Assembly (NCBI GenBank): GCA_021371855.1
Contig: JAJFVL010000049.1
Coordinates: forward strand, 70,226-134,225
Source of the DNA: Bacteroidales bacterium
GTDB lineage: Bacteria; Bacteroidota; Bacteroidia; Bacteroidales; VadinHA17
Direction: 5' to 3'
Length of the DNA stretch: 64,000 bases
The stretch's first letter is position 1; every line of letters begins with the position of its first letter. The translations under genes were made by a program, and so were the position numbers. Shown here piece by piece: positions 22,700 through 39,349 of this stretch. The notes beneath the pieces were generated by a model. The model saw nothing but the letters and a program-made list of their open reading frames with translations. It was not told the DNA's origin and searched no databases.

Positions 22700-22908
22700 A
22701 GCAAATAATATTAAATGATCGAGAAAGAACATAATATCAATAGCAAAACTTGTACCAATATTTTTCGATCCCAATTGAAGACAACAAAGATAATAATTCA
22801 CAAATGAAGATAATTAAATCATTAAAAACATGATAAAATTTATTGAATGTTGATCTTATAGTATGTATCTGTTAATAGTACCTGACCGTGAAAACATTGA
22901 CAAAGTTT

Positions 22909-24261: not shown

Positions 24262-24981
24262 TCACATGAACTTCTCCCTTTTTTGCAGGTTCGAGAGAGC
24301 TGCAAGTAAAAAAAGGATTGAACATGTAACGAGTATGATCCTGTTCTTAAAAGTGATTAACGCCCAGACTGTTTCATTGACGTTATTTGGAAGATCGTAA
24401 GGATTTAAAAATACATTCCACTGGCTTCTTTGCAGCGACGAATCCTGAAGTATCATGAAAAATATCCCGAAGATTATCATTAACACTGCAGTTCCGTTTC
24501 CGTTTCGTATGACGGTTGAAAGCATAAAAGCCATCATTCCCAAAAACAGAACCGGGATCATCACCTGCATGGTCATATTTGTAAAGCGGAACTTTACTAT
24601 CAATACTGAGGTAAGGAATGTAAAGACAAGCATTATAAGGAAAGCAATAACAAAGATCAGTACAATTCTTACCAGCCACACTTTGTATCTGTAATTTGGG
24701 ATGCCGAATAAAATCTCTATAGTTCGGGCATCCTGATCATTCTGTATCCCAAATACTGATGGATAAAATACCAGAAGTATTCCGGAGAAGATGAAGATCC
24801 CATACATATCCTCCATTCTTGAGACATCATTTGAAAAAACATAAATCACTGATAATCCGATATAAAACAATATCGACCCGGCAAGGAACCAGATAAATTT
24901 GTTTGCAAAGATGATCCTGAGATTATAAATGATCATTCTCCTGATCAATGTGAAGTAATTATATAATGTGTGAGGTTTCAT
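24262..24981 (-). CDS. ABC-2-type transporter permease (6 hydrophobic helices)
   Basis: A 239-aa polytopic protein. After TM1 it has the ABC-2-like motif DQDARTIEILFGIP, paralogous to the N-terminal domain of the 1170-aa protein (LDTNEVLYTRS). It is the last gene of the efflux locus. Confidence 0.7.
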   Translation of the reverse strand: MKPHTLYNYFTLIRRMIIYNLRIIFANKFIWFLAGSILFYIGLSVIYVFSNDVSRMEDMYGIFIFSGILLVFYPSVFGIQNDQDARTIEILFGIPNYRYKVWLVRIVLIFVIAFLIMLVFTFLTSVLIVKFRFTNMTMQVMIPVLFLGMMAFMLSTVIRNGNGTAVLMIIFGIFFMILQDSSLQRSQWNVFLNPYDLPNNVNETVWALITFKNRIILVTCSILFLLAALSNLQKREKFM

Positions 24982-25011: not shown

Positions 25012-25075
25012 GGAACCTCCATGTTTTAAAGATTATCTTCATTCTTGATTGTATTTCGTTAAACATGGAGGTTTC
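25012..25075 (-). other. Intercistronic stem-loop between the RND::ABC fusion gene and the ABC-2 permease gene
   Basis: 13 contiguous Watson-Crick pairs (25014-25026 with 25061-25073), extendable to 15 with a G-U pair, and a 34-nt loop. The right arm overlaps the stop codon at 25074-25076. No U-tract follows on the minus strand. Confidence 0.5.
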
Positions 25076-28000
25076 ATAATGAATTATTTTGCTTCCGTCC
25101 GTTTTCAACGGAGTTGTTTACATTTCTACGTAACAGCCACAGATAGGCATCTTCGAGGTTGGGACTTACATTTACCGCATTATCCCATGGTTTTGTGTCT
25201 GATATAACTCTCACTCTTATATTGTCACCTTCCGACATGTGATGCACTACCAGATGGTCTTCTATAAATTTTCCAAAGTCTTTCGCCGGAATATTGAACT
25301 GCCACACATGTTCTTCAGCTTCTTTTGTCATTTCGATCGGTTTTCCCAGGTATCTTAACAATCCTTTGTCGAGGACTGCAACCTGATTACAGGAGCTTGA
25401 TATATCCTCGATGATATGAGTGGAGAATATCACAATACGTTCACGGCTGAGTTCCACCAGCAGGTTACGGAACCTGATACGTTCCCTTGGATCCAACCCT
25501 GCCGTTGGTTCATCAACAACCAGTATACGGGGTAGGTGGAGGAGTATCTGTGCAATGCCCATTCTCTGTTTCATTCCCCCGGAATACGACCCGATCTTGT
25601 CGTGCCGGCGATCTTCCATATGAACAGCATTCAGTACAAAGGTAACCCGTTCTTCCCTTACCTTAGCATCAATGATATTCTTCAGCATTGCCTGGTAATG
25701 GAGATATTCATGAGCAGTCATATTTTCGTAACTTCCGAATTCCTGCGGCAAATAACCTATCAGTCCCTGAAGCTCTTCCCTCTTTTTCTGGGTATCGAGC
25801 CCGTTTATCCATACCTTTCCGTAGCTCTGTTCAAGGATACCACATATTATTCTCATAAGGGTAGTTTTGCCGGCACCATTTGGCCCAAGCAATCCAAACA
25901 TCCCGTTTCCTATATTCAGCGAGACGCAGTTCAGGGCTTTAAAAGGCTTTTTCTTTTTACCGATCAGGGGAACAGCGGCAACAATTTTATATATTGCCTT
26001 TCGTATCTTCTTAAACCTGCCATTAAGCCGGTAGATATCGATATTCTCATTGCTCAGTTTCAACCCTGTCTTATAAATAAAGAGACCGGCGAACCAGAGA
26101 GAACCCAGGATGAGCACGGTAGCAATGTTCTCCCATTTTATCTGAAAATAAACAAGATTGAATAAAGGAACCAGCCAGAATATCGTAAAATCAGCAGCTG
26201 AGATAAATATTCTCAGAGATTTTTTTTCGTTATGAAGTGAAATATCGGCTGACAGATTTTTAAAGGAGATCCATATCCTTGAAAGAGAGAACCACGTTAT
26301 CATGCTGAAGATAAAGATCCAGAATCCCTTACTTAAGTAAAAGTAGGTAAAATAGATTATGAATCCGAGGATTGGTAACTGCCATGTAAGCTGGCTCATA
26401 TCCTTCCACGATTTATATTGCTTTTCAAGTCCGAGCCTTTGTCTTATTTTTGCACCGGCTTTCCATTCCCTCACCCATCGGCTTTCCCTGTCATAAATTT
26501 TAACCAGGCTCTGAATATAAATACTGATATTTTCATCAGCAGGGATGATTGTCTCTCTTGCTTTTCTGAGGCTGTTCATCACGAACCAGGTTCCTGCAGG
26601 TACAATTATTAAAGTCAGTATTATTGTTATGAGCTGCCAGATAAAACTGTCTATATAGCTGTAAATAAGCAACATTAATGCCGAAAAGAAAATCAGTTGT
26701 ATGATTTTGTTCTTCCATGTTAATGAATATATCCAGTTAAGGGCATTTTCGAGTCCTGAGTAGAATGTTGGTATGAATACCAGGGTAAGAAGTGTGCTTA
26801 GCGTCAGTCCTCCGATAACAGTAATTGCAAATGTGGCTCCGATCACAGAAACATATTCGGCAGTGCCCATCGCCAGTGGCAGCATGGCAATAACTGTTGT
26901 TGATGCCGTTATCAGTATTGGTCTTAGCCGTGCTACTCCTGCAGTCATCAATGCCCTTGAACGGCGATATCCTCGCTTTCGTAAAATTTTAGTATAATCA
27001 ATTAACAGGATACCATTGTTTACCACTATACCAAGAAGGATCAGAAAGCCTGTAAGAGTGTTGGCATTAAGGAGTGAATTGCCTGTAAGTATAAGTGCGA
27101 TAAGCGAACCAAGTGCTGCAAGAGGAATGCTGAATATCAGAACGAACGGGATTGAAAGCGATTCGAATACTGCCGCAAGTATCATAAAGATAAGAATGAA
27201 GGCATAGCCCAGCGGTTTGTAAAAATCCTTAAGTTCGTCCTCTTCGTGCACCACCTCAACAGCAATGCCTGAAGGAATGTTCAGATCTGAAACAATTGAT
27301 TCGATGTCAGCCCGGGCCCCTTCCAGGAGATCTTTGGAATCTTTAATATCATCAGTGAAATTATAAGTTACAGTAATCCTTTTTTCCTGGTTTTCCCTGT
27401 GAATATTCCCCATCCCGTATGAAAAGATGATATCCGAAAGTTCCTGCATCTCCATTATCGAACTGCTGCTTTCGCTCACTTCAAGATGCTTCAGGTCGTC
27501 AATGGTTTTATCGGCATTCTTCTTTACTTCCCCTGTTTCATCAGCATATTTAAGCATGATATCGTATTCATCACTTCCCTGCTTAAATGTAGCACCTGAG
27601 GAATATTCCCTTCCGAAGGTGGCCAGTGATGAGGCTAAATTACTGAGAGAGAAATTGTTCCTACTGAGGAAATCCATGTCAAAACGAAGGTGAACTTCGG
27701 GTGTGCTTTCCTGTACATTTACGCTGACGCGGCTGACTGTTGTCAATTCGTCGATATACGATTTTATATCTTCGGCCAGGCTTCTCATCTGCTCAAAATC
27801 CTGTCCCTTGATGATTACACTTTCATTCTGTGCGCCTATACCAAGCAGGTTCATAAAGTTACCTCCAGGGTTGGCTCCTGCGCTGACTCCGCCTCCGGAT
27901 GAAAAGCCTCCGCTTGTTGAAACCTCATCCATGGAGATCTCTGCAGAGGAGATATTTTTAATTTTTTCTTCTATGTCATTTTTTATTTCAGGAAGCGCGC

Positions 28001-29849
28001 GCTTACTCTTCTTGTTCCAGTCATCTGCCAGATTAATCGTTACAGTTGCTTTTTCTTCCTCAATCCTGCTTATTACATCCTCTTTTTCAGGAAGGCCTGA
28101 GAGTCTTGATTCAATTTCAGAAACAACAGCATCGGTTTTTTCGAGTGTCGATCCTGTTGGCATCTTTACAGATAACCTGAAACTGGGAGTCTCGACTTCC
28201 TTAGTGGAATTAATGCTTAATGTAAGACTGATGAGCAGTGCGGCAAAGAAAACAACCAGGGTCCCGATTATCGTGGCTGCAGGCTTCCTCATGCTGGCTT
28301 TCAGTATAAGGTGGTAGGCCTGAATGAGGCGGTTGTGAATGGAAAGCTTCTGGTATACTGCGGAATTGCTTTTTGATGTCCTTGATAGCAGAAAATAGGT
28401 AGCCATAGGAATAAGAAGCATTGCTACAGCGAGTGAAGCCAGAAGCGTTGTGACTATTGAAACGCCGATATTCTTGATAATTATCTTGATAAGGAAGTTT
28501 GATGAAAAGACAAATGGAAGAAATATTATTACAGTTGTAAGGGTTGAAGCAAAAATGGACCTCCACACTTCAGCAGTTCCCTGCATGACAGCCGTTTCAT
28601 TATCTTTTCCTTCGCCCGCAAGCCGGTAAATGTTCTCGAGCACAACCACCGAATTATCGACAAGCATCCCTATGGCAAGAGCCATTCCTACGAGAGTAAG
28701 ACTGTTTATCGATATATTATAGGCATAAAAGAAATTAAAAGCAGCATAAACCGAAACAGGAATAGAAACTGCGATGACGGTTACCAGGCGGAAATTCCTA
28801 AGGAAAAACCATAAGATCAGTACAGCAAGCATACCTCCGGTAATGGCCAGGTTAATGATCTGGTTGATATTCTTTTCCATCACCTCGGCACTGTTGTTCT
28901 GAACAACTATCTCAACCCCCCACGATTTTAACTTCTTGTTTAGTTCTTCAATCTTTTCAATAGCTTTATGTGAGAGATCGATCAGATTAGCCTGGTTATC
29001 ATTCACGAGAGTAATTGTGACGGCATCCAGTCCATTCACACGGCTGTAAGAACTTTGTTCCTTTACTCCGAAAATGATCTCCGAAATATCACGAAGCAGA
29101 ACAGGTCCATCCTGTTTTACAATAATGCTTCCTATCTCATTTACATCGGTGTATTCGGAGGTTATATTCACAAACAATTTGTTTTTACCGTCAAGAACAG
29201 TACCGGCAAAAGTTTTGTTAGTTCCGTTATTATTCAGAAGTGCACTGACCTGTCCCATTGTAATGCCGTAAGCTTTGCAGGCTTTCTCATTCAATCTGAT
29301 CTCAATTGAATTTTCCTGTCCCCCATAAACCTCAACACCTGCAATTCCATCGATGTTTTCCAGTTCGGTTTTGATCTCACGGTCAGCGACATTACGTATC
29401 CTGTCGGCACCTCCTTCACCTCTTACCTGGAGCTCCATGAACTGGTTGGTAAGTTTTTCAAGGTCAATCTTTATGACATTTATTCTAAATTCGGAAGGGA
29501 TAGAGCTCTTTACAGCATTGATTTTTTCCTGGAGCTTCAGATTTGCATATTTCAGATTAGCATTCTGATTGTAGTAGATCATAATGCTTCCATAGCGGGA
29601 AGAAACGGTTGATTCGATCTTCTCGATTCCCTCAAGAGTTCCAATAGCACCTTCAAGCGGTACAACTGCCTGTTTTTCAATGTACGAAGGATCCATCTCA
29701 AGGGGAGTGCCTACCTGTACTATAAGAGTGGGCAGTTCAGCATTTGGAATAAGCTCAACGGACAGTTTCTTATAAGAGACATAACCGAGCATCGTGAGCC
29801 CGGCAAAAAGCATTATAATAAAAATTCTTCTTTTTAAAACGAAGTTCAT
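25074..29849 (-). CDS. Fusion protein: RND (AcrB/HAE1-like) permease + 2 TM linker + ABC ATPase interrupted by a 4-TM insertion
   Basis: An uninterrupted 1591-aa ORF. Residues 1 to about 1043 are a full 12-TM RND permease. Residues 1108-1123 (ISIYIQSLVKIYDRES) align with the N-terminal strand of the neighbouring ABC ATPase. Residues 1304-1591 carry Walker A (GPNGAGKT), the signature (YSGGMKQR), Walker B (ILVVDEPTAGLD) and the H-loop (STHI). Confidence 0.85.
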   Translation of the reverse strand: MNFVLKRRIFIIMLFAGLTMLGYVSYKKLSVELIPNAELPTLIVQVGTPLEMDPSYIEKQAVVPLEGAIGTLEGIEKIESTVSSRYGSIMIYYNQNANLKYANLKLQEKINAVKSSIPSEFRINVIKIDLEKLTNQFMELQVRGEGGADRIRNVADREIKTELENIDGIAGVEVYGGQENSIEIRLNEKACKAYGITMGQVSALLNNNGTNKTFAGTVLDGKNKLFVNITSEYTDVNEIGSIIVKQDGPVLLRDISEIIFGVKEQSSYSRVNGLDAVTITLVNDNQANLIDLSHKAIEKIEELNKKLKSWGVEIVVQNNSAEVMEKNINQIINLAITGGMLAVLILWFFLRNFRLVTVIAVSIPVSVYAAFNFFYAYNISINSLTLVGMALAIGMLVDNSVVVLENIYRLAGEGKDNETAVMQGTAEVWRSIFASTLTTVIIFLPFVFSSNFLIKIIIKNIGVSIVTTLLASLAVAMLLIPMATYFLLSRTSKSNSAVYQKLSIHNRLIQAYHLILKASMRKPAATIIGTLVVFFAALLISLTLSINSTKEVETPSFRLSVKMPTGSTLEKTDAVVSEIESRLSGLPEKEDVISRIEEEKATVTINLADDWNKKSKRALPEIKNDIEEKIKNISSAEISMDEVSTSGGFSSGGGVSAGANPGGNFMNLLGIGAQNESVIIKGQDFEQMRSLAEDIKSYIDELTTVSRVSVNVQESTPEVHLRFDMDFLSRNNFSLSNLASSLATFGREYSSGATFKQGSDEYDIMLKYADETGEVKKNADKTIDDLKHLEVSESSSSIMEMQELSDIIFSYGMGNIHRENQEKRITVTYNFTDDIKDSKDLLEGARADIESIVSDLNIPSGIAVEVVHEEDELKDFYKPLGYAFILIFMILAAVFESLSIPFVLIFSIPLAALGSLIALILTGNSLLNANTLTGFLILLGIVVNNGILLIDYTKILRKRGYRRSRALMTAGVARLRPILITASTTVIAMLPLAMGTAEYVSVIGATFAITVIGGLTLSTLLTLVFIPTFYSGLENALNWIYSLTWKNKIIQLIFFSALMLLIYSYIDSFIWQLITIILTLIIVPAGTWFVMNSLRKARETIIPADENISIYIQSLVKIYDRESRWVREWKAGAKIRQRLGLEKQYKSWKDMSQLTWQLPILGFIIYFTYFYLSKGFWIFIFSMITWFSLSRIWISFKNLSADISLHNEKKSLRIFISAADFTIFWLVPLFNLVYFQIKWENIATVLILGSLWFAGLFIYKTGLKLSNENIDIYRLNGRFKKIRKAIYKIVAAVPLIGKKKKPFKALNCVSLNIGNGMFGLLGPNGAGKTTLMRIICGILEQSYGKVWINGLDTQKKREELQGLIGYLPQEFGSYENMTAHEYLHYQAMLKNIIDAKVREERVTFVLNAVHMEDRRHDKIGSYSGGMKQRMGIAQILLHLPRILVVDEPTAGLDPRERIRFRNLLVELSRERIVIFSTHIIEDISSSCNQVAVLDKGLLRYLGKPIEMTKEAEEHVWQFNIPAKDFGKFIEDHLVVHHMSEGDNIRVRVISDTKPWDNAVNVSPNLEDAYLWLLRRNVNNSVENGRKQNNSL

Positions 29850-29867
29850 GTTCTGTTTTATAAGAAA

Positions 29868-32800
29868 TTATGCCGGATTAACTTTTTTTCTTTCAGACAC
29901 TGTCAGCCATTGGGTGAGACTGTCAAAAATCCAGTAAACACATGGGATCACTATCAGGGTCAGAAGAGTGGAAGAGACCAGACCACCTATTACTGCAAGA
30001 GCCATCGGAGATCTAAGTGATGCACTTTCACCGATCCCGATCGTAAGAGGGAAGAGAGCAAGAATTGTAGTCAGGCTTGTCATCAGTATCGGTCTTATTC
30101 TTTGACTACCGGCAAGAACAATAGCCTCTTTTTTATTCAGTCCTCCTTCCCTGAGTTGATTTATCCGATCGATGAGGAGAATTGCATTGTTTACGGCAAT
30201 CCCTCCAAGCATTATTATTCCGATGTAGGCCATCATATTAAGCGTTTTTCCCAGAAGGAAAAAAATGAGAACTGTTCCGACACCAGCCAGGGGGATGGTA
30301 AGCATTATTATAAAAGGTTGAATTATTGATTCAAACTGTGCTGCAAGAACCATGAAGACAAGAATAAGTGAAAGCATAAGTGCAAACGAAAGATTTGCAT
30401 TCGATTCCTTCCGCTTCATCTCCTCCCCGGTGAGTTGCAGTTTATAATCAACAGGAAGAGTCACTGCCTTTAGAGATTGCCCGGCATCTTTTGCTACATG
30501 ATCAAAAGCAACATCTTTATTCACATTTGCATAGATATAGCAGGTCCTTACCTGATTCCTGCGTGTAATCTCACGAGGACTTAAAACTGTTTTGATGGTG
30601 GCAAACTCACTGAGAGGAACCGATACTGTTCCGGCTGTTATCTTCAGATCTTTTAGCTGATGCAGCGAAATATCCTCAAGCTTAATAGTGATATCTTTCA
30701 TTTCACCATCTTTCTCGAAACTGCCTGCGGAAGAACCCGACAAATAACTTTTTACCTGGCTGATTACATTGTCAGTGGTGACATTGTAATAACTTGTTTT
30801 GAAACGGTCAATGGCCACCTCTACCCCGGGGGTACCTTCATCCATTGATGTGGTAATATTGTACAATCCGCTATTCTTCCCAAGAATAGTTTTTGACTCA
30901 TTAAGAATTCTCTCCAGTTCAGTATAGTCTTTGCCTGAAATTTCAAGTTCAAAAGGAGCTTCTGTGGTCCCAAGAGATGATTGGAGGGCAGTCTCCTCGC
31001 GTGTAAATGTTACTTCAAGATCAGGGATTGAAGAGAGGTAGTTATCAATTGTAGTTATTGCATTTTCCGTAAGTGAGGCGAACTTCTTATCCAGTATTAT
31101 TTTAAGCGAAGCTGTGTTTTCGCCTTCTGTCCCTGTGTTATTGGTAAGAGAGGATGTTTTACCCTTGCCTGCCTGACAATAGATAATATTTATTTTGTCG
31201 CCTAGTAATTCCCTGATAATTCCTTCGGTCTTTGATGCTGTACTGAAAGTGCGTTCGAGACTGGTTCCCTCAGGAAGTTTCAAATTTACAGCAAATTCAG
31301 CTGATTCTGATTTTGGCATGAATTCACTTCCAAGCTGTGGTATCAGCAGAGCAGTTCCTGCCATTAGCACAACTGATAGTATAATTACAAGTTTTCTTTT
31401 TTCAATTGCTTTTTCCAGGAAGCGATAGTACCATCCGAACTTCAGGGGATAGGAAATTTCGTTTTTCTTCTTTTTATCGCTAAAGAGTGTCGACACCATC
31501 ATCGGTATGACAAGCATTGCAACTACCAGTGAAGAGAGAAGAGCAAAAGCTACGGTCCATGCCTGATCTTTGAACATCTCTCCTGAAGCTCCATGCAGAT
31601 ATACTATCGGAAGGAAAACCACAATGGTTGTCACAGTTGAGGCGGTTATAGCCCCGCCAACCTGTCCTGTTCCCTTAATGACGGCCTCTTTAAGAGGGAC
31701 TCCTTCCTCCCTGAGCCTGGTTATATTTTCGAGCACAACAATGGCATTGTCAACCAACATTCCAGCTCCGAGCGCAAGCCCTCCTAATGTCATTATGTTG
31801 AGGGTCAGATGGTTGAAATACATCAGGTTAAAGGTTGCAATTATTGAGACAGGGATTGCAACGCTGATTACAAGAGTAGTACCTATACGTCTCAGGAATA
31901 TGTAAAGAACAAACACCGCCAGAAGAATACCTACAATAAGTGTGTTTTTGACCTCACCAATGGCATTATTGATATAATTTCCCTGGTCCTGCACTTTAAT
32001 GAATTCATAACCCGGTAAGGCTTTGGCAAGGTCGGCAAATGCCTTGTCGAGGCTTTCAACGGCATCTACGGTATTGTATTTTGGTTCCTTATATATTGAT
32101 AATCCAATGCACCGCTCCCCGTTAATTGTGACAATGTTCTCAGGATCTTTATTAGCTAACTTTATTGCAGCAACATCTTTCAGGTATACCGGTACTTTTT
32201 CTGATGCTGAAGCGGAAGTAGCACTTTTGGTGGTCTCTGATGCGGTTGAAGATGAGGGTTGTGTGAATCCGACAATAATATTTTCAAGGTCTTTAATATC
32301 CTCAAGAACTGTTACTCCCTTAACTGTATATTTAGTACCCATATCCACAATTGACCCTCCGGAAACATTTTTATTGTAATTGCTTATTTTGGCAGCAATT
32401 ATATCTGAGGTGATCCCATAAGCTTCAAGCACGTATTTATTTGTTTCAATTACCACCTCGCTCTCTTCCTGTCCTGTCAGCCGTACATCGGCTATCCCTT
32501 CAATCCTTACAAGTTCATTACGGATATAGTTTTCAGCAGTCTTGCGCAGCTCGTCCATATTTGTGATATGGTCGTTCTTAAGTCCCACGATCATAACAGG
32601 AGAAGCATTGGGATCGTATTGGGAGATGGTGAAGTCATCGATATCGGAGTTCTGGGCAAATGAGTTCAGTTCCTTCTGAAGATCGAGAAAGGCTTCATCC
32701 ATATCTTTATTCCAGTCATATTCAACGGTTATAGTAGCTGATCCCACTTTTGAAACTGATGAAACCTGAACAACATCACTCTGTTGCATCGAAAGTGATT

Positions 32801-33005
32801 CGATCTTGTCGACAAAATTCTTTTCAACCTCCTCGGGAGGTTTTTCTCCTGCCGTCAATTCAATATAAATCTTAGGATTGTTAAGATCAGGGAACAGATC
32901 GGTTCTTAATTTACCGAAAGAGATGAAGCCAAGAAGAATTATCCCCAGGACCAGCATCAATACAGTAACAGGGTATTTTACCGCAAATTGGGCAATTCGG
33001 TTCAT
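29868..33005 (-). CDS. Efflux RND transporter permease subunit (AcrB/AcrD/AcrF family)
   Basis: 1045 aa with 12 hydrophobic helices and two large periplasmic loops. The N-terminus (FAVKYPVTVLMLVLGIILLG) and the GMLVDNAIVVLENI motif are typical. Confidence 0.92.
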   Translation of the reverse strand: MNRIAQFAVKYPVTVLMLVLGIILLGFISFGKLRTDLFPDLNNPKIYIELTAGEKPPEEVEKNFVDKIESLSMQQSDVVQVSSVSKVGSATITVEYDWNKDMDEAFLDLQKELNSFAQNSDIDDFTISQYDPNASPVMIVGLKNDHITNMDELRKTAENYIRNELVRIEGIADVRLTGQEESEVVIETNKYVLEAYGITSDIIAAKISNYNKNVSGGSIVDMGTKYTVKGVTVLEDIKDLENIIVGFTQPSSSTASETTKSATSASASEKVPVYLKDVAAIKLANKDPENIVTINGERCIGLSIYKEPKYNTVDAVESLDKAFADLAKALPGYEFIKVQDQGNYINNAIGEVKNTLIVGILLAVFVLYIFLRRIGTTLVISVAIPVSIIATFNLMYFNHLTLNIMTLGGLALGAGMLVDNAIVVLENITRLREEGVPLKEAVIKGTGQVGGAITASTVTTIVVFLPIVYLHGASGEMFKDQAWTVAFALLSSLVVAMLVIPMMVSTLFSDKKKKNEISYPLKFGWYYRFLEKAIEKRKLVIILSVVLMAGTALLIPQLGSEFMPKSESAEFAVNLKLPEGTSLERTFSTASKTEGIIRELLGDKINIIYCQAGKGKTSSLTNNTGTEGENTASLKIILDKKFASLTENAITTIDNYLSSIPDLEVTFTREETALQSSLGTTEAPFELEISGKDYTELERILNESKTILGKNSGLYNITTSMDEGTPGVEVAIDRFKTSYYNVTTDNVISQVKSYLSGSSAGSFEKDGEMKDITIKLEDISLHQLKDLKITAGTVSVPLSEFATIKTVLSPREITRRNQVRTCYIYANVNKDVAFDHVAKDAGQSLKAVTLPVDYKLQLTGEEMKRKESNANLSFALMLSLILVFMVLAAQFESIIQPFIIMLTIPLAGVGTVLIFFLLGKTLNMMAYIGIIMLGGIAVNNAILLIDRINQLREGGLNKKEAIVLAGSQRIRPILMTSLTTILALFPLTIGIGESASLRSPMALAVIGGLVSSTLLTLIVIPCVYWIFDSLTQWLTVSERKKVNPA

Positions 33006-33010
33006 GTTAG

Positions 33011-34063
33011 TTATTTAATTATTTTCACCTTCGATTTGTTGCTGAGAGTTTCAAAGCCGGCTGTTACGATCCGTTCATCTTTGACTAATCCTCTGATTAC
33101 TTCTACTTCCGAAATATTTTCAAGTCCTGTCTCAATTATCTTTTCGACAGCAACACCACGGTCGATTGTAAATACTGTTTTGCCCTTCTGGCGCGACAGG
33201 ATTATGCTTTTAGGAATTACAACAACAGAGTCCTTATGGTTTGTGATAATATCTGCTTTCACAAACATGCCAGGGCGGAGAAGGTAATTGTTGTTGTTTA
33301 TCAGGATATTACCCTTGAAAGTTCTGGTGTTGGCATCGATGGCCGGCGACAGCTGGGTAATCTTACCTATTATGGTATCTCCCGGCAAGGTGTAATTTGT
33401 GAGTCTGACAGTTTGTTCAGGTTTGATTACGGATATATATTTCTCAGGAAGCTGAACATCCATATACATAGTTTTGTAATCCATTATTTTAGCAATTGTC
33501 GAAGCCTGCGCAATCAATGTCCCCTGGGTATAATAGGGGAGGTCGACAATAACACCGTCAATAGGGGCAACTATCTTGGTCTTTTCGAGTTGCAGCCTTG
33601 CATTTTCAACAGTTGTTTTTGCGGTTTCATAATTAATGCTCGCTGTTTTCAGCTCCTTCAGTGTGACGCCTCCTTTCTCATATAGTGACTCCTGTTTTTT
33701 GAGTTCACTTTCAGCAAGTTCAAGGTTCAGCTCGCTGGTCTCCATCTTGACGGAAATGACATACTCCCTGTCCTCAAGCCTGGCTATCAGTGCTCCGGCT
33801 GTAATCTTGTCTCCCATTTGCCATGGTTTGCCAGTATGTGGATTTTTTTCAAGGTAATATGAAGCAGCGATTTTTGAAGCAAGCACAATTTCTCCCTTCG
33901 GGAAGGCAGTGCCTGTTGTGTTGATAAATTCTTCTATCGACCTGAGCCGGATATCTTCAATTGAAACGGGGATTTCAACATCGGCAGTAAGGTTCTGATC
34001 GGTATTCCGGCATCCCGAGAGTGAAATTATTGCAATTGCTGATAAGACTAAAATCTTCTTCAT
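33011..34063 (-). CDS. Efflux RND periplasmic adaptor (membrane fusion protein, HlyD/AcrA family)
   Basis: 350 aa with a lipoprotein-type signal (LSGC), a coiled-coil hairpin region, and lipoyl and beta-barrel segments (IVAPIDGVIV). It lies 5 nt upstream of the RND gene. Confidence 0.9.
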   Translation of the reverse strand: MKKILVLSAIAIISLSGCRNTDQNLTADVEIPVSIEDIRLRSIEEFINTTGTAFPKGEIVLASKIAASYYLEKNPHTGKPWQMGDKITAGALIARLEDREYVISVKMETSELNLELAESELKKQESLYEKGGVTLKELKTASINYETAKTTVENARLQLEKTKIVAPIDGVIVDLPYYTQGTLIAQASTIAKIMDYKTMYMDVQLPEKYISVIKPEQTVRLTNYTLPGDTIIGKITQLSPAIDANTRTFKGNILINNNNYLLRPGMFVKADIITNHKDSVVVIPKSIILSRQKGKTVFTIDRGVAVEKIIETGLENISEVEVIRGLVKDERIVTAGFETLSNKSKVKIIK

Positions 34064-34085
34064 GGGAATATAAGTTATATTTTAT

Positions 34086-35576
34086 TTATTTTTTATTTAA
34101 TGTCATTACCGGCGAAACAGGTTCTTTTTTCTCAAAGTCATAAAGTGTCTGGATTTTAAGATTCAGCAATTCAAGCTTGTAAGAGATAAGAGAATTTGTG
34201 TAAGAGAGTTTTTTTTCAGATAGCTGGTTCTGATAGATATTAAGGTCCATTCCTGTAAGGTCACCGTTCTTGTATTTTTCGAGATTAAGATCATAAGCAA
34301 GCTGGGCATTAACGACATTCTGGCGTGCAATTTCGATCTGGTTTTGCAAATTCAGAAGATTTCTGTATATCTTTCTGATACTAAGAATAATATCATTCTG
34401 TTCTTCCTCAAAAGCAATATTTGCTGACTCGATCGATGCTTCAGATGCTTTTATTCTTGATTTTCTTTCCCCCCAGTCCCAAAGGGGGATTGACAATGAC
34501 AATGAAACGCTTTCGTTATTTGTGGGGGTTTCATATACATTTCCGAATTTTTCATTGTCCCCGAAAAGCCCGACTGAAAGACCCAGGTTTCCTTTAAATT
34601 CGTTCAGCGCTTTAGTCTGAATAAGATTAAACTCGGATGACTCAATATTGATTTTACGTTGTCTTAATTCCATCCTGTTATCAAGCCCCTGATCGATGGC
34701 AAAAGCAACATCAACCTTCACAGTGTCAACTGCAATGTTTGGCAGAACCAGAAGATCTTCATACAAACTCATTCCGATCACGATCTTGAAATTGTCCTTG
34801 GAATTCTCGAAAGACACCTGGCTGTTCTCAAAATCAGATTTTGTTGTGGCAAGGTTAAGCTCAGCCTGGAACATCTCCTCGCGGGCCAGCAGGCCGGCAT
34901 CGACTTTATTCCTGGAGACTTCGTAACTCTTCTGCATATTTTCGTATGCCTGCCTGGATATCTCAAGGCTTTGTTGTTTCTGGTAAACATCATAAAAAGA
35001 TGTTGTGACTTCTTTCTCGAGCGAAAGTAACTGTATTGCATAGCTCAACTTTGCGTTTTCGAGTGCAAGTTGCAGCTCTTTAAGTTCAAGTTTGGTCCTG
35101 TTGTAGGTGAACAGGGGCTGATTAAGATTGAGAGCAAGGTTGTTGCTGAATCCCTTATTTGTTGCACCTGAATATTCGCTGTATGAGTCTTTATATCCAA
35201 ATTTATTCACCAGCGATATGTTTGCGTCAGTTAAGAGTACAGGTTGTGAAATGGTGAATGTGCCGAAACTTTCTGTTGTCTTTGTTGAGTTCCATGCTGA
35301 GATGAGTTCATTAAAGGAACGGTTCTGGCTATATCCTATCGGGTTGACCGATAGCGAAAACTGAGACTTCAGGGCTGCGTTCTGTGCATTCAGGTTTTCC
35401 TGGCTCCTTACAAGGCTGAGCCGTGTTGTTTTCATTGTCGGACTGTTTGATTCGGCAATGCTCATTGCTTCATCAATTGTCATTCCTTTCTGAGAAAAGG
35501 ATATTATGAAGGTGGCCGGGAACAATATTAGAAGCAGGTATAATCTCCTCAGTTTGACGTTGAATCGTTGTTTCAT
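34086..35576 (-). CDS. TolC-family outer-membrane efflux channel
   Basis: 496 aa with a signal sequence and the duplicated alpha-helical/beta repeat pattern of outer-membrane factors. It lies directly upstream of the adaptor gene. Confidence 0.9.
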   Translation of the reverse strand: MKQRFNVKLRRLYLLLILFPATFIISFSQKGMTIDEAMSIAESNSPTMKTTRLSLVRSQENLNAQNAALKSQFSLSVNPIGYSQNRSFNELISAWNSTKTTESFGTFTISQPVLLTDANISLVNKFGYKDSYSEYSGATNKGFSNNLALNLNQPLFTYNRTKLELKELQLALENAKLSYAIQLLSLEKEVTTSFYDVYQKQQSLEISRQAYENMQKSYEVSRNKVDAGLLAREEMFQAELNLATTKSDFENSQVSFENSKDNFKIVIGMSLYEDLLVLPNIAVDTVKVDVAFAIDQGLDNRMELRQRKINIESSEFNLIQTKALNEFKGNLGLSVGLFGDNEKFGNVYETPTNNESVSLSLSIPLWDWGERKSRIKASEASIESANIAFEEEQNDIILSIRKIYRNLLNLQNQIEIARQNVVNAQLAYDLNLEKYKNGDLTGMDLNIYQNQLSEKKLSYTNSLISYKLELLNLKIQTLYDFEKKEPVSPVMTLNKK

Positions 35577-35821: not shown

Positions 35822-38800
35822 TCAGTTCTGCTTCACCCACTTAATTGCATCGCCAATCACTACTCTTCCGGCCGAAAGATTTGTCAGAGCAACTTTTGCT
35901 GTACCTGGTGAAAGGTAGTAACGGCCAAGTTTGTTCCAACCGGCATCAGCGTCCTGGTATTCAATTGTTATTTCTTCCACACCTTCGTCATGGTATATTT
36001 TGTAATGCATATCCTTATATGGATTGTCTCGCTGGGGTTCACCTCCCGGACCTGCCTGGCTGCCCGGACTACCCCCCGGGGCACCCTGAGCTCCGGCCCC
36101 TCCGGGTCCTCCGCCTGCTCCTCCCGGACCTCTTCTTCCCGTTACCAGAATCCGGTCACGGGTTTTTCCCACATAGCAGAATATATCATAATAGCCTGGC
36201 TCTTTGATAGTGGCAGACCATACTATTTCTTTATCGCCCGAACCACCGCGGGTATATACCGACGAAAGAATATAATCCCCGTAATAATTGGTTTCAACAA
36301 CTTTCTGCCAGTATTCTGGTACATTCATCATTCTGACCTGCTGGTACATTTCGCTTCTATTGTTTTTTATTCCAAGAAGTTTTTTAAGAGGACTGACACT
36401 ATCCCTGACGGCTACAATAAAACCCGGATCTTCGTTATCAACAATTATCTCTGAGGGATCTCTGTATTGCGGGATTGAAGGAAGGATAGCTTCGCCCGCG
36501 AATTCTTCAGCTCTTTTTTCCGATTTTGCTATTTCATTGATTGGCATAGTTATCTGGCCTGGTATGTTCTTCGCGAACAGAGTGTTAACCATCATTGCTC
36601 TTGGGCGGGCATCAAGTACAACACCAACCTTTTTTGCCTCGTTGGGTCCGATAAGCACTATTTTTGAAATATCAGAAGCTTCCATGCCGCGTCCCTGCAT
36701 CGAAATAGCAAAATTCCTTCCTCTTCCGGCTCCTCCCTGTGTAACAGTTGCTGTCACTCTTTGACCTCCTCTTCCCTGTGATCCCGGACCTCCCGTGCGG
36801 AATGATACATTGAATATTCCTGCAACAGGCTCAATATTAGACACAATAAAGGTCACCTGGTATTTCGATCTGTCACCTGTAATAATTTCTGTTGCCTGAA
36901 CATTTGTGAAACGGAAACCAGGCTGCTCTTTCTTATTAAACCAGTCATCAAGATAAGGATAGAACTCAAAACCGAATCTCCCATTTATATCGTCATTCAA
37001 TTGCTTAATATCAACTCTTTTAAACCTGTGATCATCAATGTATTTCTCAAACCAGTCTTTAAACTCTGTAATCCCTGCCTTTGCCCTGATCAGATTAAAG
37101 AGATAATCACCTTTTACAGTCAGGACAGCCCTCATAGTATCACCTGAGGGATTCTTTTCCAGAAGATCCCTGAAACTTGTCTCTTTAAGTATAAGATTTG
37201 CTTTGTCATTTTCGGTAAGCCCTCCCATCATACCACCGAATCGGCCTTGTCCAGGTACAGATACTTTCTGAAGATGAGATTCAAAAACAGCATTTATAAC
37301 AGGATATTCCGAAGAGTAGAAATTGTTTTTGAAAAAGTAGAAACTTGGTGCAAGACGATACCGGGTTGGTTCGTTAAGAACGTTTCCCTTTACAAACCTG
37401 AAATTCTCACCGCTGATAAATGTGTTTCTGATAAAATTGTTAAATGTTCTGACCTGCAGCTCTTTATCAGTAATGACCTGATTGTTTCGGGTCATCCTTT
37501 TTTTCTGTCGTGATATTTGTTTACGGAATCCTGCATTTTGCAATGTCGATAATTTCTCAGGAAGCAAAACCATTGAAGGTTGCAATTCTGCCCTGGTCTG
37601 AGTGTTCATTTTCGGAAAAGAATGAAACTGAACGGGAACTTCAACAAGACTCAGGGTACCAAAAGGGTATTTGCTTGAGAAATTTGTTTCCAGTTCCCTT
37701 AGTATTCCTGAAACAAGTAATGGCAGAGTATCTTTAATTTCAGCAAGATCCTTTTTGTAATAATCATGTCCCGGGAAATTGAAACTTATGAATCTGACCG
37801 AGTCAACTATCAGAGTATCCGACTGATAGTCTCCTATAACAAGTGTCAGGCCGGTCAGTGAAGATTCCGGGACGAAAACGAAATCTCCGTTATCCGTTTT
37901 CCTGTTGCCCTGCGATATTACATTAAGCCCTTCTTCTGTTTTTACCCGCAACGTGAACCTGGTGAAATCAATTTTTATCCGTGCAGGATTCGATGGATAA
38001 TAATTCAGTCCTGTTACAGGATACCATTGTGATTCGGGAGTTAATAAAACATATTTCTTTGTCAGAAATGCCTGCCGTTTGTTCACATTAAGCATAGCAA
38101 TACGGTATGGTGTTTCTTTGATATTATCGGTGTAGTTAGGATAACAAAATGCCTCATTTATTGATCCGCTGTAGGTTATCTTAACGCTGTCGCTCATTCC
38201 GGGTTCAAGAACCTTTCCGGGATCAACCTCAATAATCTGATTTGTTTTTTTAAAATTAAGATTGTTTCCGTTAGAAGTGATTCTGGAAACGGACAAAGAA
38301 GGATTCAGGGAGAAAATATAACTATCAAGCCCCACCCTGTTATCATTAACAAACTTTAAGAGGGCAGATGCCTCAAATGTATCTCCTTTGTGAATGAAAT
38401 TTATTGAAGCATCGGTTATGCTTGTAACGTTACTGTTCTCGAATTCTTTATTGGTTTTAATTGCCAATTCTTTATCGTCAGCTCCTTTTTTATAAGCTGA
38501 ATAAGTATTCAATCCGCAAATGGCTGATCCGGCCAGGAAGATGAGCATAAATATCCAGGAAAAGGTGCTGTGTGTTTTTGATTGTGGTAATCGTTTGAAT
38601 AGCAATACTGTAGCCAATACCATGGCCATCCCTATGAAAAAATACAGGAGGCGTTGATTTAAAATATTATTTAAATTGTCAAATCCGATCACCCCTGATT
38701 TCAATACAGGAAGTCCAAATGCCATGTAATCGAAAATAGATCCGGACCTGTCGTAGAGCCAGAATATATTAAGTGCTGCCAGTCCGAGTAAAATAAGAAA

Positions 38801-39334
38801 GGTTATAGCCTGGTTCCTGATGACCGACATCAGCATAAAAGCAAGTCCGAGACTGAAAATGATTGTTGGGACGCATATAATCAGAAGATAAGAGACGTAT
38901 GACATTAAATCGATTGACATACTTTTTGAAATGATATTCATAATCAATCCTATCGATAAAATGATTAAATCAAGTCCCAGGAAGAGCCGGAGTATCCCCC
39001 AGGTTTTTCCAATAATATATTCAAGATTCGATATTGATCTGGTATAAAGAACTTCATTAGTGTCGAGTTTTTTATCTCTTTTGAGGAAATCGGCTGCAAG
39101 GAAGATGACCACAATAGCCTGACCAATATTAAGGAGGTATAGATTAACAAGAGGAAGAGAAGCAGGTAGTGAAACCAGCTCCCATGTTTCGGAACCTACG
39201 GGAGAAAACAGACCAATGTTTAAAAATGTGAATATCAGTAGTGCAACTATTGAAAAGAGCCTGAAGAACCAGCTCCTCCTTAATGTTTTTGCTTCATATT
39301 GTGCAACAGTCCTTATGTTGTGAAGAAGTACCAT
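35822..39334 (-). CDS. ABC-2 permease fused to an M1-aminopeptidase-like (apparently non-catalytic) ectodomain and a C-terminal beta-rich module
   Basis: 1170 aa. About 290 N-terminal residues form a polytopic ABC-2-like domain. The central region shows the M1 N-terminal/catalytic-domain pattern, but the translation has no HExxH or GAMEN motif. A Gly/Pro linker (36011-36139) precedes a 62-aa C-terminal module. Confidence 0.75.
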   Translation of the reverse strand: MVLLHNIRTVAQYEAKTLRRSWFFRLFSIVALLIFTFLNIGLFSPVGSETWELVSLPASLPLVNLYLLNIGQAIVVIFLAADFLKRDKKLDTNEVLYTRSISNLEYIIGKTWGILRLFLGLDLIILSIGLIMNIISKSMSIDLMSYVSYLLIICVPTIIFSLGLAFMLMSVIRNQAITFLILLGLAALNIFWLYDRSGSIFDYMAFGLPVLKSGVIGFDNLNNILNQRLLYFFIGMAMVLATVLLFKRLPQSKTHSTFSWIFMLIFLAGSAICGLNTYSAYKKGADDKELAIKTNKEFENSNVTSITDASINFIHKGDTFEASALLKFVNDNRVGLDSYIFSLNPSLSVSRITSNGNNLNFKKTNQIIEVDPGKVLEPGMSDSVKITYSGSINEAFCYPNYTDNIKETPYRIAMLNVNKRQAFLTKKYVLLTPESQWYPVTGLNYYPSNPARIKIDFTRFTLRVKTEEGLNVISQGNRKTDNGDFVFVPESSLTGLTLVIGDYQSDTLIVDSVRFISFNFPGHDYYKKDLAEIKDTLPLLVSGILRELETNFSSKYPFGTLSLVEVPVQFHSFPKMNTQTRAELQPSMVLLPEKLSTLQNAGFRKQISRQKKRMTRNNQVITDKELQVRTFNNFIRNTFISGENFRFVKGNVLNEPTRYRLAPSFYFFKNNFYSSEYPVINAVFESHLQKVSVPGQGRFGGMMGGLTENDKANLILKETSFRDLLEKNPSGDTMRAVLTVKGDYLFNLIRAKAGITEFKDWFEKYIDDHRFKRVDIKQLNDDINGRFGFEFYPYLDDWFNKKEQPGFRFTNVQATEIITGDRSKYQVTFIVSNIEPVAGIFNVSFRTGGPGSQGRGGQRVTATVTQGGAGRGRNFAISMQGRGMEASDISKIVLIGPNEAKKVGVVLDARPRAMMVNTLFAKNIPGQITMPINEIAKSEKRAEEFAGEAILPSIPQYRDPSEIIVDNEDPGFIVAVRDSVSPLKKLLGIKNNRSEMYQQVRMMNVPEYWQKVVETNYYGDYILSSVYTRGGSGDKEIVWSATIKEPGYYDIFCYVGKTRDRILVTGRRGPGGAGGGPGGAGAQGAPGGSPGSQAGPGGEPQRDNPYKDMHYKIYHDEGVEEITIEYQDADAGWNKLGRYYLSPGTAKVALTNLSAGRVVIGDAIKWVKQN

Positions 39335-39349
39335 GATTGTAATTTATTA

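What the first reader, a model, noticed from the sequence alone, without database searches (positions are those of the whole stretch)
25941..26528. ABC nucleotide-binding domain split by a ~180-aa four-helix membrane insertion
ISIYIQSLVKIYDRES (nt 26481-26528) aligns residue for residue with the first beta-strand of the paralogous free ATPase (IEIQGLNKIYPNGN). The next aligned segment, KALNCVSLNIGNGMFGLLGPNGAGK (matching HALKDINLEFGSGMFGLLGPNGAGK), resumes only about 180 residues later. The intervening sequence (nt 25941-26480) contains four hydrophobic segments: LPILGFIIYFTYFYL, FWIFIFSMITWFSL, FTIFWLVPLFNLVYF and ATVLILGSLWFAGLFIY. Because the number is even, both halves of the NBD remain cytoplasmic. 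A membrane domain inserted in the beta1-beta2 hairpin of an NBD is highly unusual. It could form the contact surface with the RND or with the 239-aa permease.
Basis: partly seen in the sequence, partly recalled or inferred. Interest (0 to 1): 0.7.

Follow-up and report, generated by a model that had tools for sequence, protein, structure and literature searches.

The report
ABC ATPase domain split by membrane helices
An ATP-burning ABC domain fused to the end of a drug-efflux (RND) pump has its first strand separated from the rest by four membrane-spanning helices, an uncharacterised layout conserved in hundreds of uncultured bacteria that may physically link ATP use to an RND pump.

Summary
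ORF 25074-29849 (-) encodes a 1591-aa protein with an RND permease (aa 2-1031) fused to an ABC nucleotide-binding domain (NBD).

- **Split strand.** The NBD's first strand and A-loop tyrosine (ISIYIQSLVKIY, aa 1108-1119) lie about 180 residues before strand 2 and Walker A. The normal gap is about 5 residues.
- **Sequence evidence that the distal segment is the real beta1.** It is near-invariant across the family. Splicing it onto the core adds 11 bits and extends the GldA profile match to position 1; a shuffled control adds nothing.
- **Structural evidence.** A confident AlphaFold2 model (pLDDT 87.5) makes it a paired strand. Its variable positions covary reciprocally with the end of beta2.
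- **Membrane helices.** The insertion holds one amphipathic helix, four long hydrophobic helices (pLDDT 91-96, positive-inside pattern) and a return helix.
- **Distribution.** At least 480 species genomes carry the architecture, mostly Bacteroidales MAGs plus Latescibacterota. It always sits in one cluster: ABC ATPase, giant ABC-2 permease, adaptor, RND1, RND2::NBD and a 239-aa ABC-2-like permease.
- **Precedent.** No stand-alone homologue of the insertion and no literature were found.

The function is inferred: a membrane staple that couples the ATPase to the RND and permease.

The parts
26757..29849 (-). RND permease domain (aa 1-1031) of the 1591-aa fusion protein (RND2)
   Evidence: Pfam ACR_tran matches aa 2-1031, E 1.8e-162. 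The closest solved structure by sequence is ZneA, followed by MdtB.
26556..26717 (-). Two extra membrane helices (aa ~1045-1065 and 1069-1098) between RND TM12 and beta1
   Evidence: Hydropathy peaks. AF2 helices 14-34 and 38-67, with 10-residue-block pLDDT of about 78-97. Helix-helix covariation at 1054-1076 and 1058-1079.
26481..26528 (-). Displaced NBD strand beta1 with A-loop Tyr1119 (ISIYIQSLVKIYDRES, aa 1108-1123)
   Evidence: 7/10 identities to the paralogue's beta1, unique in the window. Adds 11 bits and extends the profile match to position 1 when spliced to the core. Motif [LV]xKx[YF] found in 26/26 diverged representatives. AF2 strand at model residues 79-88, pLDDT about 90. Covaries with beta2 residue N1312.
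26436..26480 (-). Conserved basic amphipathic helix (RWVREWKAGAKIRQR, aa 1124-1138) directly after beta1
   Evidence: R, E, W, G, R and R are invariant in A2. AF2 helix 93-107.
26046..26408 (-). Four long hydrophobic helices forming two hairpins (aa 1148-1171, 1175-1207, 1210-1239, 1242-1268): the membrane insertion
   Evidence: AF2 helices 117-140, 144-176, 179-208 and 211-237, with 10-residue-block pLDDT mostly 91-96. Four family-averaged hydropathy peaks. Insertion energies comparable to the protein's RND helices. Positive-inside pattern. Covariation 1168-1181.
25977..26012 (-). Cytoplasmic return helix (aa 1280-1291), followed by the conserved P-x-IG-KKKK-PF lead-in to beta2
   Evidence: AF2 helix 249-260. 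P, I, G, P, F and K are invariant in A2.
25077..25943 (-). NBD core from beta2 onward (aa 1303-1591): Walker A 1322, Q-loop 1367, signature 1423, Walker B/Glu 1442-1447, H-loop 1476, plus a C-terminal domain
   Evidence: Pfam ABC_tran E 6e-28. Motifs located. The AF2 NBD superposes on 1vpl (TM 0.81, rmsd 1.9 A) and LptB.
24262..24981 (-). 239-aa six-helix protein, the probable ABC-2-type permease partner of the fused NBD
   Evidence: Six hydropathy peaks. Weak, sub-threshold ABC2_membrane_2 match, E 0.014. Found immediately downstream in 78/82 related loci and in distant members with weak ABC2_membrane_2/3 hits.
29868..33005 (-). Second RND permease (RND1, 1045 aa) immediately upstream
   Evidence: ACR_tran E 2.9e-222. 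Syntenic in 78/82 loci.
33011..35576 (-). Periplasmic adaptor (33011-34063) and TolC-like outer-membrane factor (34086-35576)
   Evidence: NCBIfam RND_mfp E 6.6e-58 and type_I_sec_TolC E 2.9e-29. Syntenic.
35822..40243 (-). Free paralogous ABC ATPase (39350-40243, 297 aa) and a 1170-aa protein with an N-terminal multi-helix permease-like region and a Golvesin_C end (35822-39334)
   Evidence: The same gene pair heads the cluster in Latescibacterota and marine relatives.

Best explanation
The C-terminal ~500 residues of this RND-ABC fusion are a catalytically intact ABC nucleotide-binding domain. Its beta1-beta2 turn, just after the A-loop tyrosine, has acquired an insertion of about 180 residues. 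The insertion consists of an amphipathic helix, two transmembrane helical hairpins (four helices) and a return helix.

Beta1 folds back in cis onto beta2, so the ATP site is complete. Beta1 is flanked on both sides by membrane helices: two before it and four after it. The NBD therefore hangs from a six-helix membrane module next to the RND transmembrane domain.

The following steps are inferred. This module anchors the NBD at the membrane. It forms part of the interface with the 239-aa ABC-2-type permease and/or the RND helices. Because beta1 carries the adenine-stacking tyrosine, the module could pass ATP-binding movements into the membrane. The NBD must dimerise to work. Its partner could be a second RND2::NBD protomer in a mixed RND1/RND2 trimer, or the co-conserved free paralogous ATPase. 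Either way the result would be an ABC-2 exporter hard-wired to a tripartite RND pump, giving two-step efflux from cytoplasm or inner leaflet to periplasm to outside.
For: Shown:
- The fusion and its domains.
- The contiguous alignment lacks beta1.
- The distal segment behaves as beta1 in profiles. GldA score is 174.4 bits for the core alone, 185.5 with the distal segment spliced on (profile positions 1-211), and 175.1 with a shuffled control.
- PDB alignments to ABCA1 and LptB extend over their beta1.
- The motif [LV]xKx[YF] lies 190-230 aa before Walker A in 26/26 representatives at the 50%-identity cluster level. Its columns are among the most conserved outside the NBD core.
- The AF2 model built from a diverse alignment has pLDDT 87.5 and pTM 0.76. 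Residues 1110-1119 form a DSSP strand with pLDDT about 90. Every other strand lies in the NBD or its C-terminal domain (model residues 272 onward), so the partner must lie there. The model's NBD is canonical.
- Reciprocal covariation links N1312 with Y1111 and S1109 (rank 72 of 153,181 pairs, with Y-N, R-E, K-D and R-D pair types), and K1304 with R1121.
- Four membrane helices are supported.
- All catalytic motifs are intact.
- A single ORF of about 1590 codons occurs in at least 60 of 79 independent loci. 480 species genomes encode a relative of the beta1-insertion segment.
- The cluster is conserved across phyla.

Inferred: the anchoring and coupling role, the dimer partner and the two-step efflux model.
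Against: - No model coordinates were available, so the beta1-beta2 pairing is deduced from DSSP states and covariation rather than seen directly.
- The first AF2 run, on a shallow alignment, gave low confidence for beta1 and the NBD N-terminus.
- Covariation rests on an effective sample of about 46 sequences and is not corrected for phylogeny.
- No dedicated transmembrane predictor was run. The third insertion helix is marginal on the Hessa scale (4.6 kcal/mol).
- Two proximal segments also look weakly beta1-like. HMMER aligned AIYKIVAAVPLIG to beta1 of ABCA1 NBD2. Splicing in NIDIYRLNGRF added 5 bits to the RbbA model.
- Nothing tested here bears on substrate, stoichiometry or energy coupling.
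Confidence: 0.75

Rival explanations
1. Beta1 is donated in trans. The long insertion lets the strand of one protomer complete the NBD of a neighbouring RND2::NBD protomer, a domain swap that would cross-link protomers of the RND trimer.
For: The insertion of about 180 aa gives ample reach. RND pumps are obligate trimers and NBDs obligate dimers. The covariation and profile evidence cannot distinguish cis from trans pairing.
Against: The monomer AF2 model closes the sheet in cis with high confidence (pTM 0.76). Beta1 is only about 10 residues from the end of the preceding membrane helix and 4 residues from the following amphipathic helix, so it is tightly tethered to its own membrane module.
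Confidence: 0.1
2. The distal beta1-like segment is a relic or has another role, such as a regulatory strand. The working first strand of the NBD would then come from sequence just upstream of beta2 (NIDIYRLNGRF or AIYKIVAAVPLIG), so the NBD is not really split.
For: HMMER aligned IYKIVAAVPLIGKKKKPF with beta1 of ABCA1 NBD2. The NIDIYRLNGRF splice added 2-5 bits in two models (PQQ_ABC, RbbA). The I..R..G.F pattern is conserved among close relatives.
Against: The NIDIYRLEGRF-type segment is absent or unrecognisable in the diverged members P0149, P0111, P0072 and P0090, while the distal motif is present in all 26. AF2 models aa 1280-1291 as a helix, not a strand. Neither proximal candidate carries an invariant aromatic residue at the A-loop position. 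The closest profile (GldA) gains 11 bits only from the distal segment. Beta2 covaries with the distal segment.
Confidence: 0.06
3. The four hydrophobic helices do not span the membrane. They would form a soluble or peripherally bound helical bundle attached to the NBD.
For: On Kyte-Doolittle with a 19-residue window, only two of the four exceed 1.6. The helices are rich in Tyr and Trp. AF2 helices of 24-33 residues run beyond a bilayer's thickness. No dedicated transmembrane predictor was available.
Against: The Hessa and Wimley-White sums are in the range of the protein's own RND helices and far from the NBD. Hydrophobicity is conserved across 26 diverged sequences although the sequences themselves drift. 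The connecting loops are short (SKG, QIKWEN) and the charge pattern is positive-inside. The segments lie next to two unambiguous membrane helices.
Confidence: 0.08
4. Artefact: a chimeric or frameshifted assembly joined an RND gene, a small membrane-protein gene and an ABC ATPase gene.
For: Many public gene calls for this family are fragments of 180-500 aa. L001 shows frame changes inside the gene.
Against: One uninterrupted ORF of about 1580-1610 codons holds both beta1 and Walker A in at least 60 of 79 independent MAG loci and in 18 full-length representatives at the 50%-identity cluster level. The fragments trace to contig ends or to frameshift-prone assemblies.
Confidence: 0.01

Closest known systems
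CFTR (ABCC7) NBD1 regulatory insertion
   Same: An extra segment sits between strands beta1 and beta2 of an ABC NBD, after the A-loop aromatic residue. This shows the site tolerates insertions. (Stated from my own knowledge of the published NBD1 structures; not tested here.)
   Different: The CFTR insertion is about 30 residues, soluble, largely disordered and phosphoregulatory. Here the insertion is about 180 residues and forms a well-ordered four-helix membrane domain.
ABC-2 / type V exporter ATPases (DrrA, GldA, NosF, ABCA-family NBDs; solved relatives TM_1403 4yer, TM0544 1vpl)
   Same: They are the best sequence and fold matches for the NBD core, and all catalytic motifs are shared. The gene order is also the same, with an ATPase followed by a small six-helix ABC-2-like permease.
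   Different: Those ATPases are contiguous soluble subunits. This protein scores below the GldA and DrrA family cut-offs, is fused to an RND permease and has beta1 displaced by a membrane domain.
Heteromeric RND pumps with two adjacent RND genes (MdtABC, MuxABC-OpmB)
   Same: Two paralogous RND permease genes lie side by side with one adaptor and an outer-membrane factor. MdtB is among the best PDB matches.
   Different: None of these carries an ATPase. Here one of the two RND paralogues is extended by six membrane helices and an NBD.
MacAB-TolC tripartite ABC pump
   Same: An ABC ATPase works in the same envelope-spanning assembly type (adaptor plus TolC-like duct). The NBD is fused to a membrane domain.
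   Different: The MacB membrane domain is a four-helix type VII ABC fold with no RND domain, and its NBD is contiguous. No homology between the insertion and any Pfam family was found.

Membership tests
ABC ATPase superfamily (nucleotide-binding domain) | Walker A, Q-loop, LSGGQ-type signature, Walker B with catalytic Glu, and H-loop | tested here: met
   GPNGAGKT at 1322, LPQ at 1367, SGGMKQR at 1423, ILVVDE at 1442, STH at 1476. Pfam ABC_tran scores 98.6 bits against a cut-off of 25. These columns are invariant in A3.
ABC ATPase superfamily (nucleotide-binding domain) | A-loop aromatic residue at the end of beta1 | tested here: met
   Y1119 is Y or F in 26/26 diverged representatives. It aligns to the A-loop position of the GldA profile, ABCA1 and LptB when spliced to the core.
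ABC ATPase superfamily (nucleotide-binding domain) | Contiguous beta1-turn-beta2 hairpin with about 5 residues between the A-loop aromatic and beta2 | tested here: not met
   185 residues separate Y1119 from A1305. Across the family the motif lies 190-230 residues before Walker A. This is the variant feature.
GldA (TIGR03522) and DrrA (TIGR01188) ATPase families | Score above the curated NCBIfam cut-off | tested here: not met
   GldA 171.7 bits (185.5 when spliced) against 402.6. DrrA 160.5 bits against 312.45. The protein resembles these families but is not a member.
RND permease superfamily (ACR_tran) | Full-length match to the 12-helix, two-loop RND profile | tested here: met
   PF00873 covers aa 2-1031 and profile positions 3-1018 of 1021, at 542.9 bits against a cut-off of 28.
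Multidrug RND subfamily (NF033617 / AcrB type) | Subfamily cut-off, and the AcrB proton relay (Asp-Asp in TM4, Lys in TM10) | tested here: inconclusive
   NF033617 scores 448.7 bits against a cut-off of 1250. TM4 reads VDN and TM10 reads VNN in both RND paralogues (read from the sequences). Only an alignment to ZneA was inspected. The mapping to AcrB residues is from memory.
ABC-2 type permease (for the 239-aa partner) | Pfam ABC2_membrane family match, and six membrane helices | tested here: inconclusive
   ABC2_membrane_2 E 0.014, 15.1 bits against 27.2. Six hydropathy peaks. Orthologues in L083-L085 carry weak precomputed ABC2_membrane_2/3 hits.

The most novel reading that the evidence does not exclude
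The cluster encodes a single supercomplex in which an ATP-driven ABC-2 exporter is covalently built onto a proton-driven tripartite RND pump. The exporter would comprise the fused NBD, the free paralogous ATPase or a second fused NBD, the 239-aa permease and possibly the giant permease. The split NBD would act as the mechanical coupler: ATP binding at the A-loop tyrosine on beta1 would move the six-helix module and gate or drive the RND transmembrane domain. That would make it a dual-energised (ATP plus proton-motive force) efflux machine.
Probability: 0.15. Interest if true: 0.95.

Novelty: new variant of a known kind. Interest (0 to 1): 0.78.

Why it matters
ABC NBDs are among the most studied protein folds, and I know of no case where a membrane domain is inserted inside the fold. 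The only insertion I know of at this site is CFTR's short soluble regulatory insertion. A covalent RND-ABC fusion is also undescribed in the literature I could search, although the architecture is conserved in at least 480 species genomes and across phyla. Public annotation labels the pieces "RND permease", "ABC ATPase" or "hypothetical", and many gene calls are truncated.

If the ATPase is functionally coupled to the RND pump, two ideas become directly testable. One is cooperative two-step efflux. The other is that an RND machine can be regulated or powered by ATP. The beta1 staple also offers a natural example of how an NBD can be wired to membrane helices through its adenine-sensing strand.

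Tried and rejected
1. The first AF2 run, on a shallow alignment of 57 sequences mostly 60-86% identical to the window protein, gave pLDDT below 50 for beta1 and the NBD N-terminus, and a distorted NBD (rmsd about 12 A to PDB NBDs). It was uninformative and was superseded by the run on a diverse alignment.
2. I tested whether the six extra helices are a degenerate ABC-2 permease related to the 239-aa protein. hhalign of the two family profiles gave probability 0.2%, so there is no support.
3. I searched with the NBD core alone to find the nearest relatives lacking the insertion. The 120 listed hits were all fragments of the same family at 67-91% identity, so the origin of the insertion and any intermediate forms remain unknown.
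4. The proximal beta1 candidates were rejected on conservation, AF2 secondary structure and the splice test.
5. Pfam has no family for the insertion; the best hit was DHHC at E 7.8.
6. Five literature searches for an RND-ABC fusion found nothing relevant.
7. Model coordinates are not exposed by the tools, so direct contact measurement was impossible.
Full report
**What is in the window.** The finding lies inside ORF 25074-29849 on the minus strand, which encodes a 1591-aa protein. Pfam places an RND permease (ACR_tran) on aa 2-1031 (E 1.8e-162) and an ABC ATPase domain (ABC_tran) on aa 1309-1450 (E 6e-28). The gene sits in a minus-strand cluster with the following members:
- a free ABC ATPase of 297 aa (39350-40243);
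- a 1170-aa protein with an N-terminal multi-helix permease-like region and a Golvesin_C end (35822-39334);
- a TolC-like outer-membrane factor (34086-35576);
- a periplasmic adaptor (33011-34063);
- a first RND permease (29868-33005);
- the RND::ABC fusion;
- a 239-aa six-helix protein (24262-24981) with a weak ABC2_membrane_2 match.

**Checking the observation.**
Residue i of the protein starts at nt 29849-3(i-1).
- ISIYIQSLVKIYDRES is therefore aa 1108-1123, the proposed insertion is aa 1124-1303, and Walker A starts at aa 1322.
- BLASTP against the free paralogue gives 41% identity but begins at the paralogue's residue 18, so beta1 is missing.
- Profile matches to full-length ATPase models likewise start at about profile position 10.
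- The upstream segment shares 7 of 10 residues with the paralogue's beta1 (I.IQ.L.KIY).
- In all six frames of the 64-kb window it is the only 10-mer other than the paralogue's own with 6 or more identities.
- Only 8 of 20,000 shuffles of the 272-aa linker reach 7.

**Is the distal segment really the first strand of the NBD?** Four independent lines say yes.
1. *Profile test.* I joined aa 1100-1123 directly to aa 1304-1591 and scored the result against NCBIfam.
   - The closest model (GldA, TIGR03522) rose from 174.4 bits (core only, profile positions 16-211) to 185.5 bits, with the alignment reaching profile position 1.
   - The native contiguous sequence gave 175.6, a shuffled version of the 24 residues gave 175.1, and a proximal candidate (NENIDIYRLNGRF) gave 175.2.
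   - Against PDB sequences, the spliced construct's alignment to ABCA1 NBD1 extended 19 residues further N-terminal (chain residue 896 instead of 915). The alignment to LptB started at residue 6-7 instead of 10-11.
2. *Conservation.*
   - A profile of aa 1092-1305, searched against 1.84 billion representative proteins, found 119 relatives. Every full-length one is 1550-1590 aa, so all are RND-fused.
   - In 26 representatives from different 50%-identity clusters, the motif [LV]xKx[YF] lies 190-230 residues before Walker A. In distant members it reads as the textbook IRNLTKIYG.
   - Columns L1115, K1117, I1118 and Y1119 are among the most conserved outside the NBD core.
   - By contrast, the proximal NIDIYRLEGRF-like segment is lost in several diverged members.
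3. *Structure prediction.*
   - With a diverse 40-sequence alignment, AlphaFold2 gave mean pLDDT 87.5 and pTM 0.76.
   - Residues 1110-1119 are a DSSP strand with pLDDT about 90. All other strands lie at model residues 272 onward, in the NBD or its C-terminal domain, so the strand must be paired there.
   - The modelled NBD is canonical, with TM-score 0.81 and rmsd 1.9 A to 1vpl, and 0.81 to LptB.
   - An earlier run on a shallow alignment was uninformative.
4. *Covariation.*
   - In 122 family sequences (effective number about 46), the two best partners of N1312, at the end of beta2, are Y1111 and S1109 in the distal strand, and the relationship is reciprocal.
   - The 1111-1312 pair ranks 72nd of 153,181 pairs. 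Its residue types switch from Y-N to R-E, K-D and R-D.
   - K1304, at the start of beta2, has R1121 as its best partner.
   - This is the register expected for an antiparallel hairpin closed near Y1119 and A1305. The register argument is my inference.

**What is inserted.** The confident model shows the following sequence of elements:
- beta1;
- a conserved basic amphipathic helix (aa 1124-1138);
- four long helices (aa 1148-1171, 1175-1207, 1210-1239 and 1242-1268; 10-residue-block pLDDT mostly 91-96) joined by 2-3-residue turns;
- a cytoplasmic return helix (aa 1280-1291);
- the conserved P-x-I-G-KKKK-P-F lead-in to beta2.

Several results support membrane embedding:
- Family-averaged hydropathy has exactly four peaks in the insertion and two more before beta1.
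- Summed insertion energies are 2.3, 1.6, 4.6 and 1.1 kcal/mol, against -2.5 to +2.3 for the protein's own RND helices and at least 10 for the NBD. Wimley-White octanol sums are -10 to -17 (scale values recalled from memory).
- K+R counts in the successive loops are 14, 0, 5, 1 and 13, which fits in-out-in-out-in.
- Helix-helix covariation (1054-1076, 1058-1079, 1168-1181) supports the hairpins.

No dedicated transmembrane predictor was available, and the third helix is marginal. With them, beta1 is flanked on both sides by membrane helices.

**How widespread and how real.**
- A pattern scan of one genome per GTDB species found 480 genomes encoding a relative. The 80 loci returned are all MAGs labelled Bacteroidales, Bacteroidia, Bacteroidota or Rikenellaceae.
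- In at least 60 of 79 loci, a single stop-to-stop ORF of about 1580-1610 codons contains both the beta1 motif and Walker A. The shorter cases are at contig ends or in assemblies with frame changes.
- Gene order (giant permease, OMF, adaptor, RND1, RND2::NBD, 239-aa permease) is conserved in essentially all loci with enough flank.
- Distant members share only 36-39% identity in this region. They include a cluster with Candidatus Latescibacterota records and a marine metagenome contig.
- These distant members keep the same cluster: ATPase of about 296 aa, M1-peptidase/Golvesin_C permease of about 1130 aa, adaptor, RND1, RND2::NBD, and an ABC-2 permease of about 240 aa.
- Source names are generic: "efflux RND transporter permease subunit", "hypothetical protein", and "AcrB/ABC-type multidrug transport system ATPase subunit".

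**How it most likely works.**
- *Shown.* The NBD has every catalytic motif and a complete fold, with beta1 supplied from 180 residues upstream.
- *Inferred: the role of the module.* The six-helix module holds the NBD at the membrane beside the RND domain. It probably contributes to the interface with the 239-aa ABC-2-type permease encoded immediately downstream, following the usual ATPase-then-permease gene order of ABC-2 systems.
- *Inferred: a route for ATP-driven movement.* Beta1 bears the adenine-stacking tyrosine and is tied to membrane helices on both sides, so nucleotide binding could be passed straight into the membrane module.
- *Inferred: the dimer partner.* NBDs act as dimers. The partner could be a second RND2::NBD protomer in a mixed RND1/RND2 trimer (heterotrimers are established for MdtBC). 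It could instead be the strictly co-conserved free paralogue (41% identical, motifs intact).
- *Inferred: the overall machine.* Either way, the simplest functional reading is an ABC-2 exporter hard-wired to a tripartite RND pump for two-step efflux. Substrate and energy coupling are unknown.

**Rivals.**
- Trans (domain-swapped) donation of beta1 cannot be excluded with these tools.
- A proximal substitute for beta1 is disfavoured by conservation, AF2 and the splice test.
- A non-membrane helical bundle is disfavoured by hydrophobicity, charge pattern and context.
- An assembly artefact is excluded by cross-genome conservation.

**Comparison with known systems.**
- The NBD core resembles the DrrA, GldA, NosF and ABCA-type ATPases but scores below their curated cut-offs.
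- The RND part is a bona fide ACR_tran protein. It is closest to ZneA and MdtB among solved structures. Its TM4 reads VDN and its TM10 reads VNN, rather than the AcrB Asp-Asp and Lys (the AcrB mapping is from memory).
- The only precedent I know for an insertion at the beta1-beta2 site is CFTR's regulatory insertion of about 30 residues, which is soluble and disordered (from my own knowledge).
- The insertion has no Pfam family, no homology to the neighbouring permease, and no stand-alone relatives.
- Five literature searches found no description of an RND-ABC fusion.

**Verdict.** All the building blocks are known, but the architecture appears undescribed: an NBD whose first strand is separated from the rest of the fold by a four-helix membrane domain, fused behind an RND permease, in a cluster conserved across phyla. 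I rate it a new variant of a known kind, with high interest.

Noticed in passing
window 35822-40243 (-): A second ABC system heads the same cluster. It consists of a free ATPase (297 aa, 41% identical to the fused NBD) and a 1170-aa protein with about 6-7 N-terminal membrane helices, a large extracytoplasmic region and a Golvesin_C domain. Orthologues show Peptidase_M1 hits. The pair is co-conserved with the RND::NBD gene even in Latescibacterota-like and marine relatives. This raises the possibility of a heterodimeric ABC unit spanning both ends of the cluster.
   Followed up: partly
window 26757-33005 (-), TM4 and TM10 of both RND paralogues: Both RND permeases read VDN in TM4 and VNN in TM10, where AcrB has Asp-Asp and Lys (residue mapping from memory). 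The closest solved relative by sequence is the metal pump ZneA. Their proton-relay chemistry may differ from the AcrB type, which bears on how the pump is energised.
   Followed up: partly
window 21218-22801 (-): This 527-aa ORF has no Pfam or NCBIfam match. Its C-terminal half consists of near-identical Ser/Thr/Arg-rich repeats (…STTRRSSSTVTTRPATSPSAGQ…). Relatives (57-65% identity) lie within a few kb of the efflux cluster in 10 of the related loci.
   Followed up: no
L001 7650-8100; L003, L023, L041, L045, L059, L070, L076: In several public MAGs the fusion gene is broken by frame changes. Gene callers therefore emit orphan 'ABC ATPase' proteins of about 450-500 aa that start at an internal Met (MNSLRKARET…), plus truncated RND proteins. 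These fragments dominate database hits and hide the true architecture.
   Followed up: partly
window 7074-14483 (+): A very large ORF (2469 aa) lies upstream on the opposite strand. It was not examined.
   Followed up: no
L069, L075, L081 (three contigs of one MAG, CAZGGZ01): One MAG carries the fusion gene on three different contigs, two of them with identical layout. This points either to paralogous copies or to strain-level redundancy in the bin.
   Followed up: no
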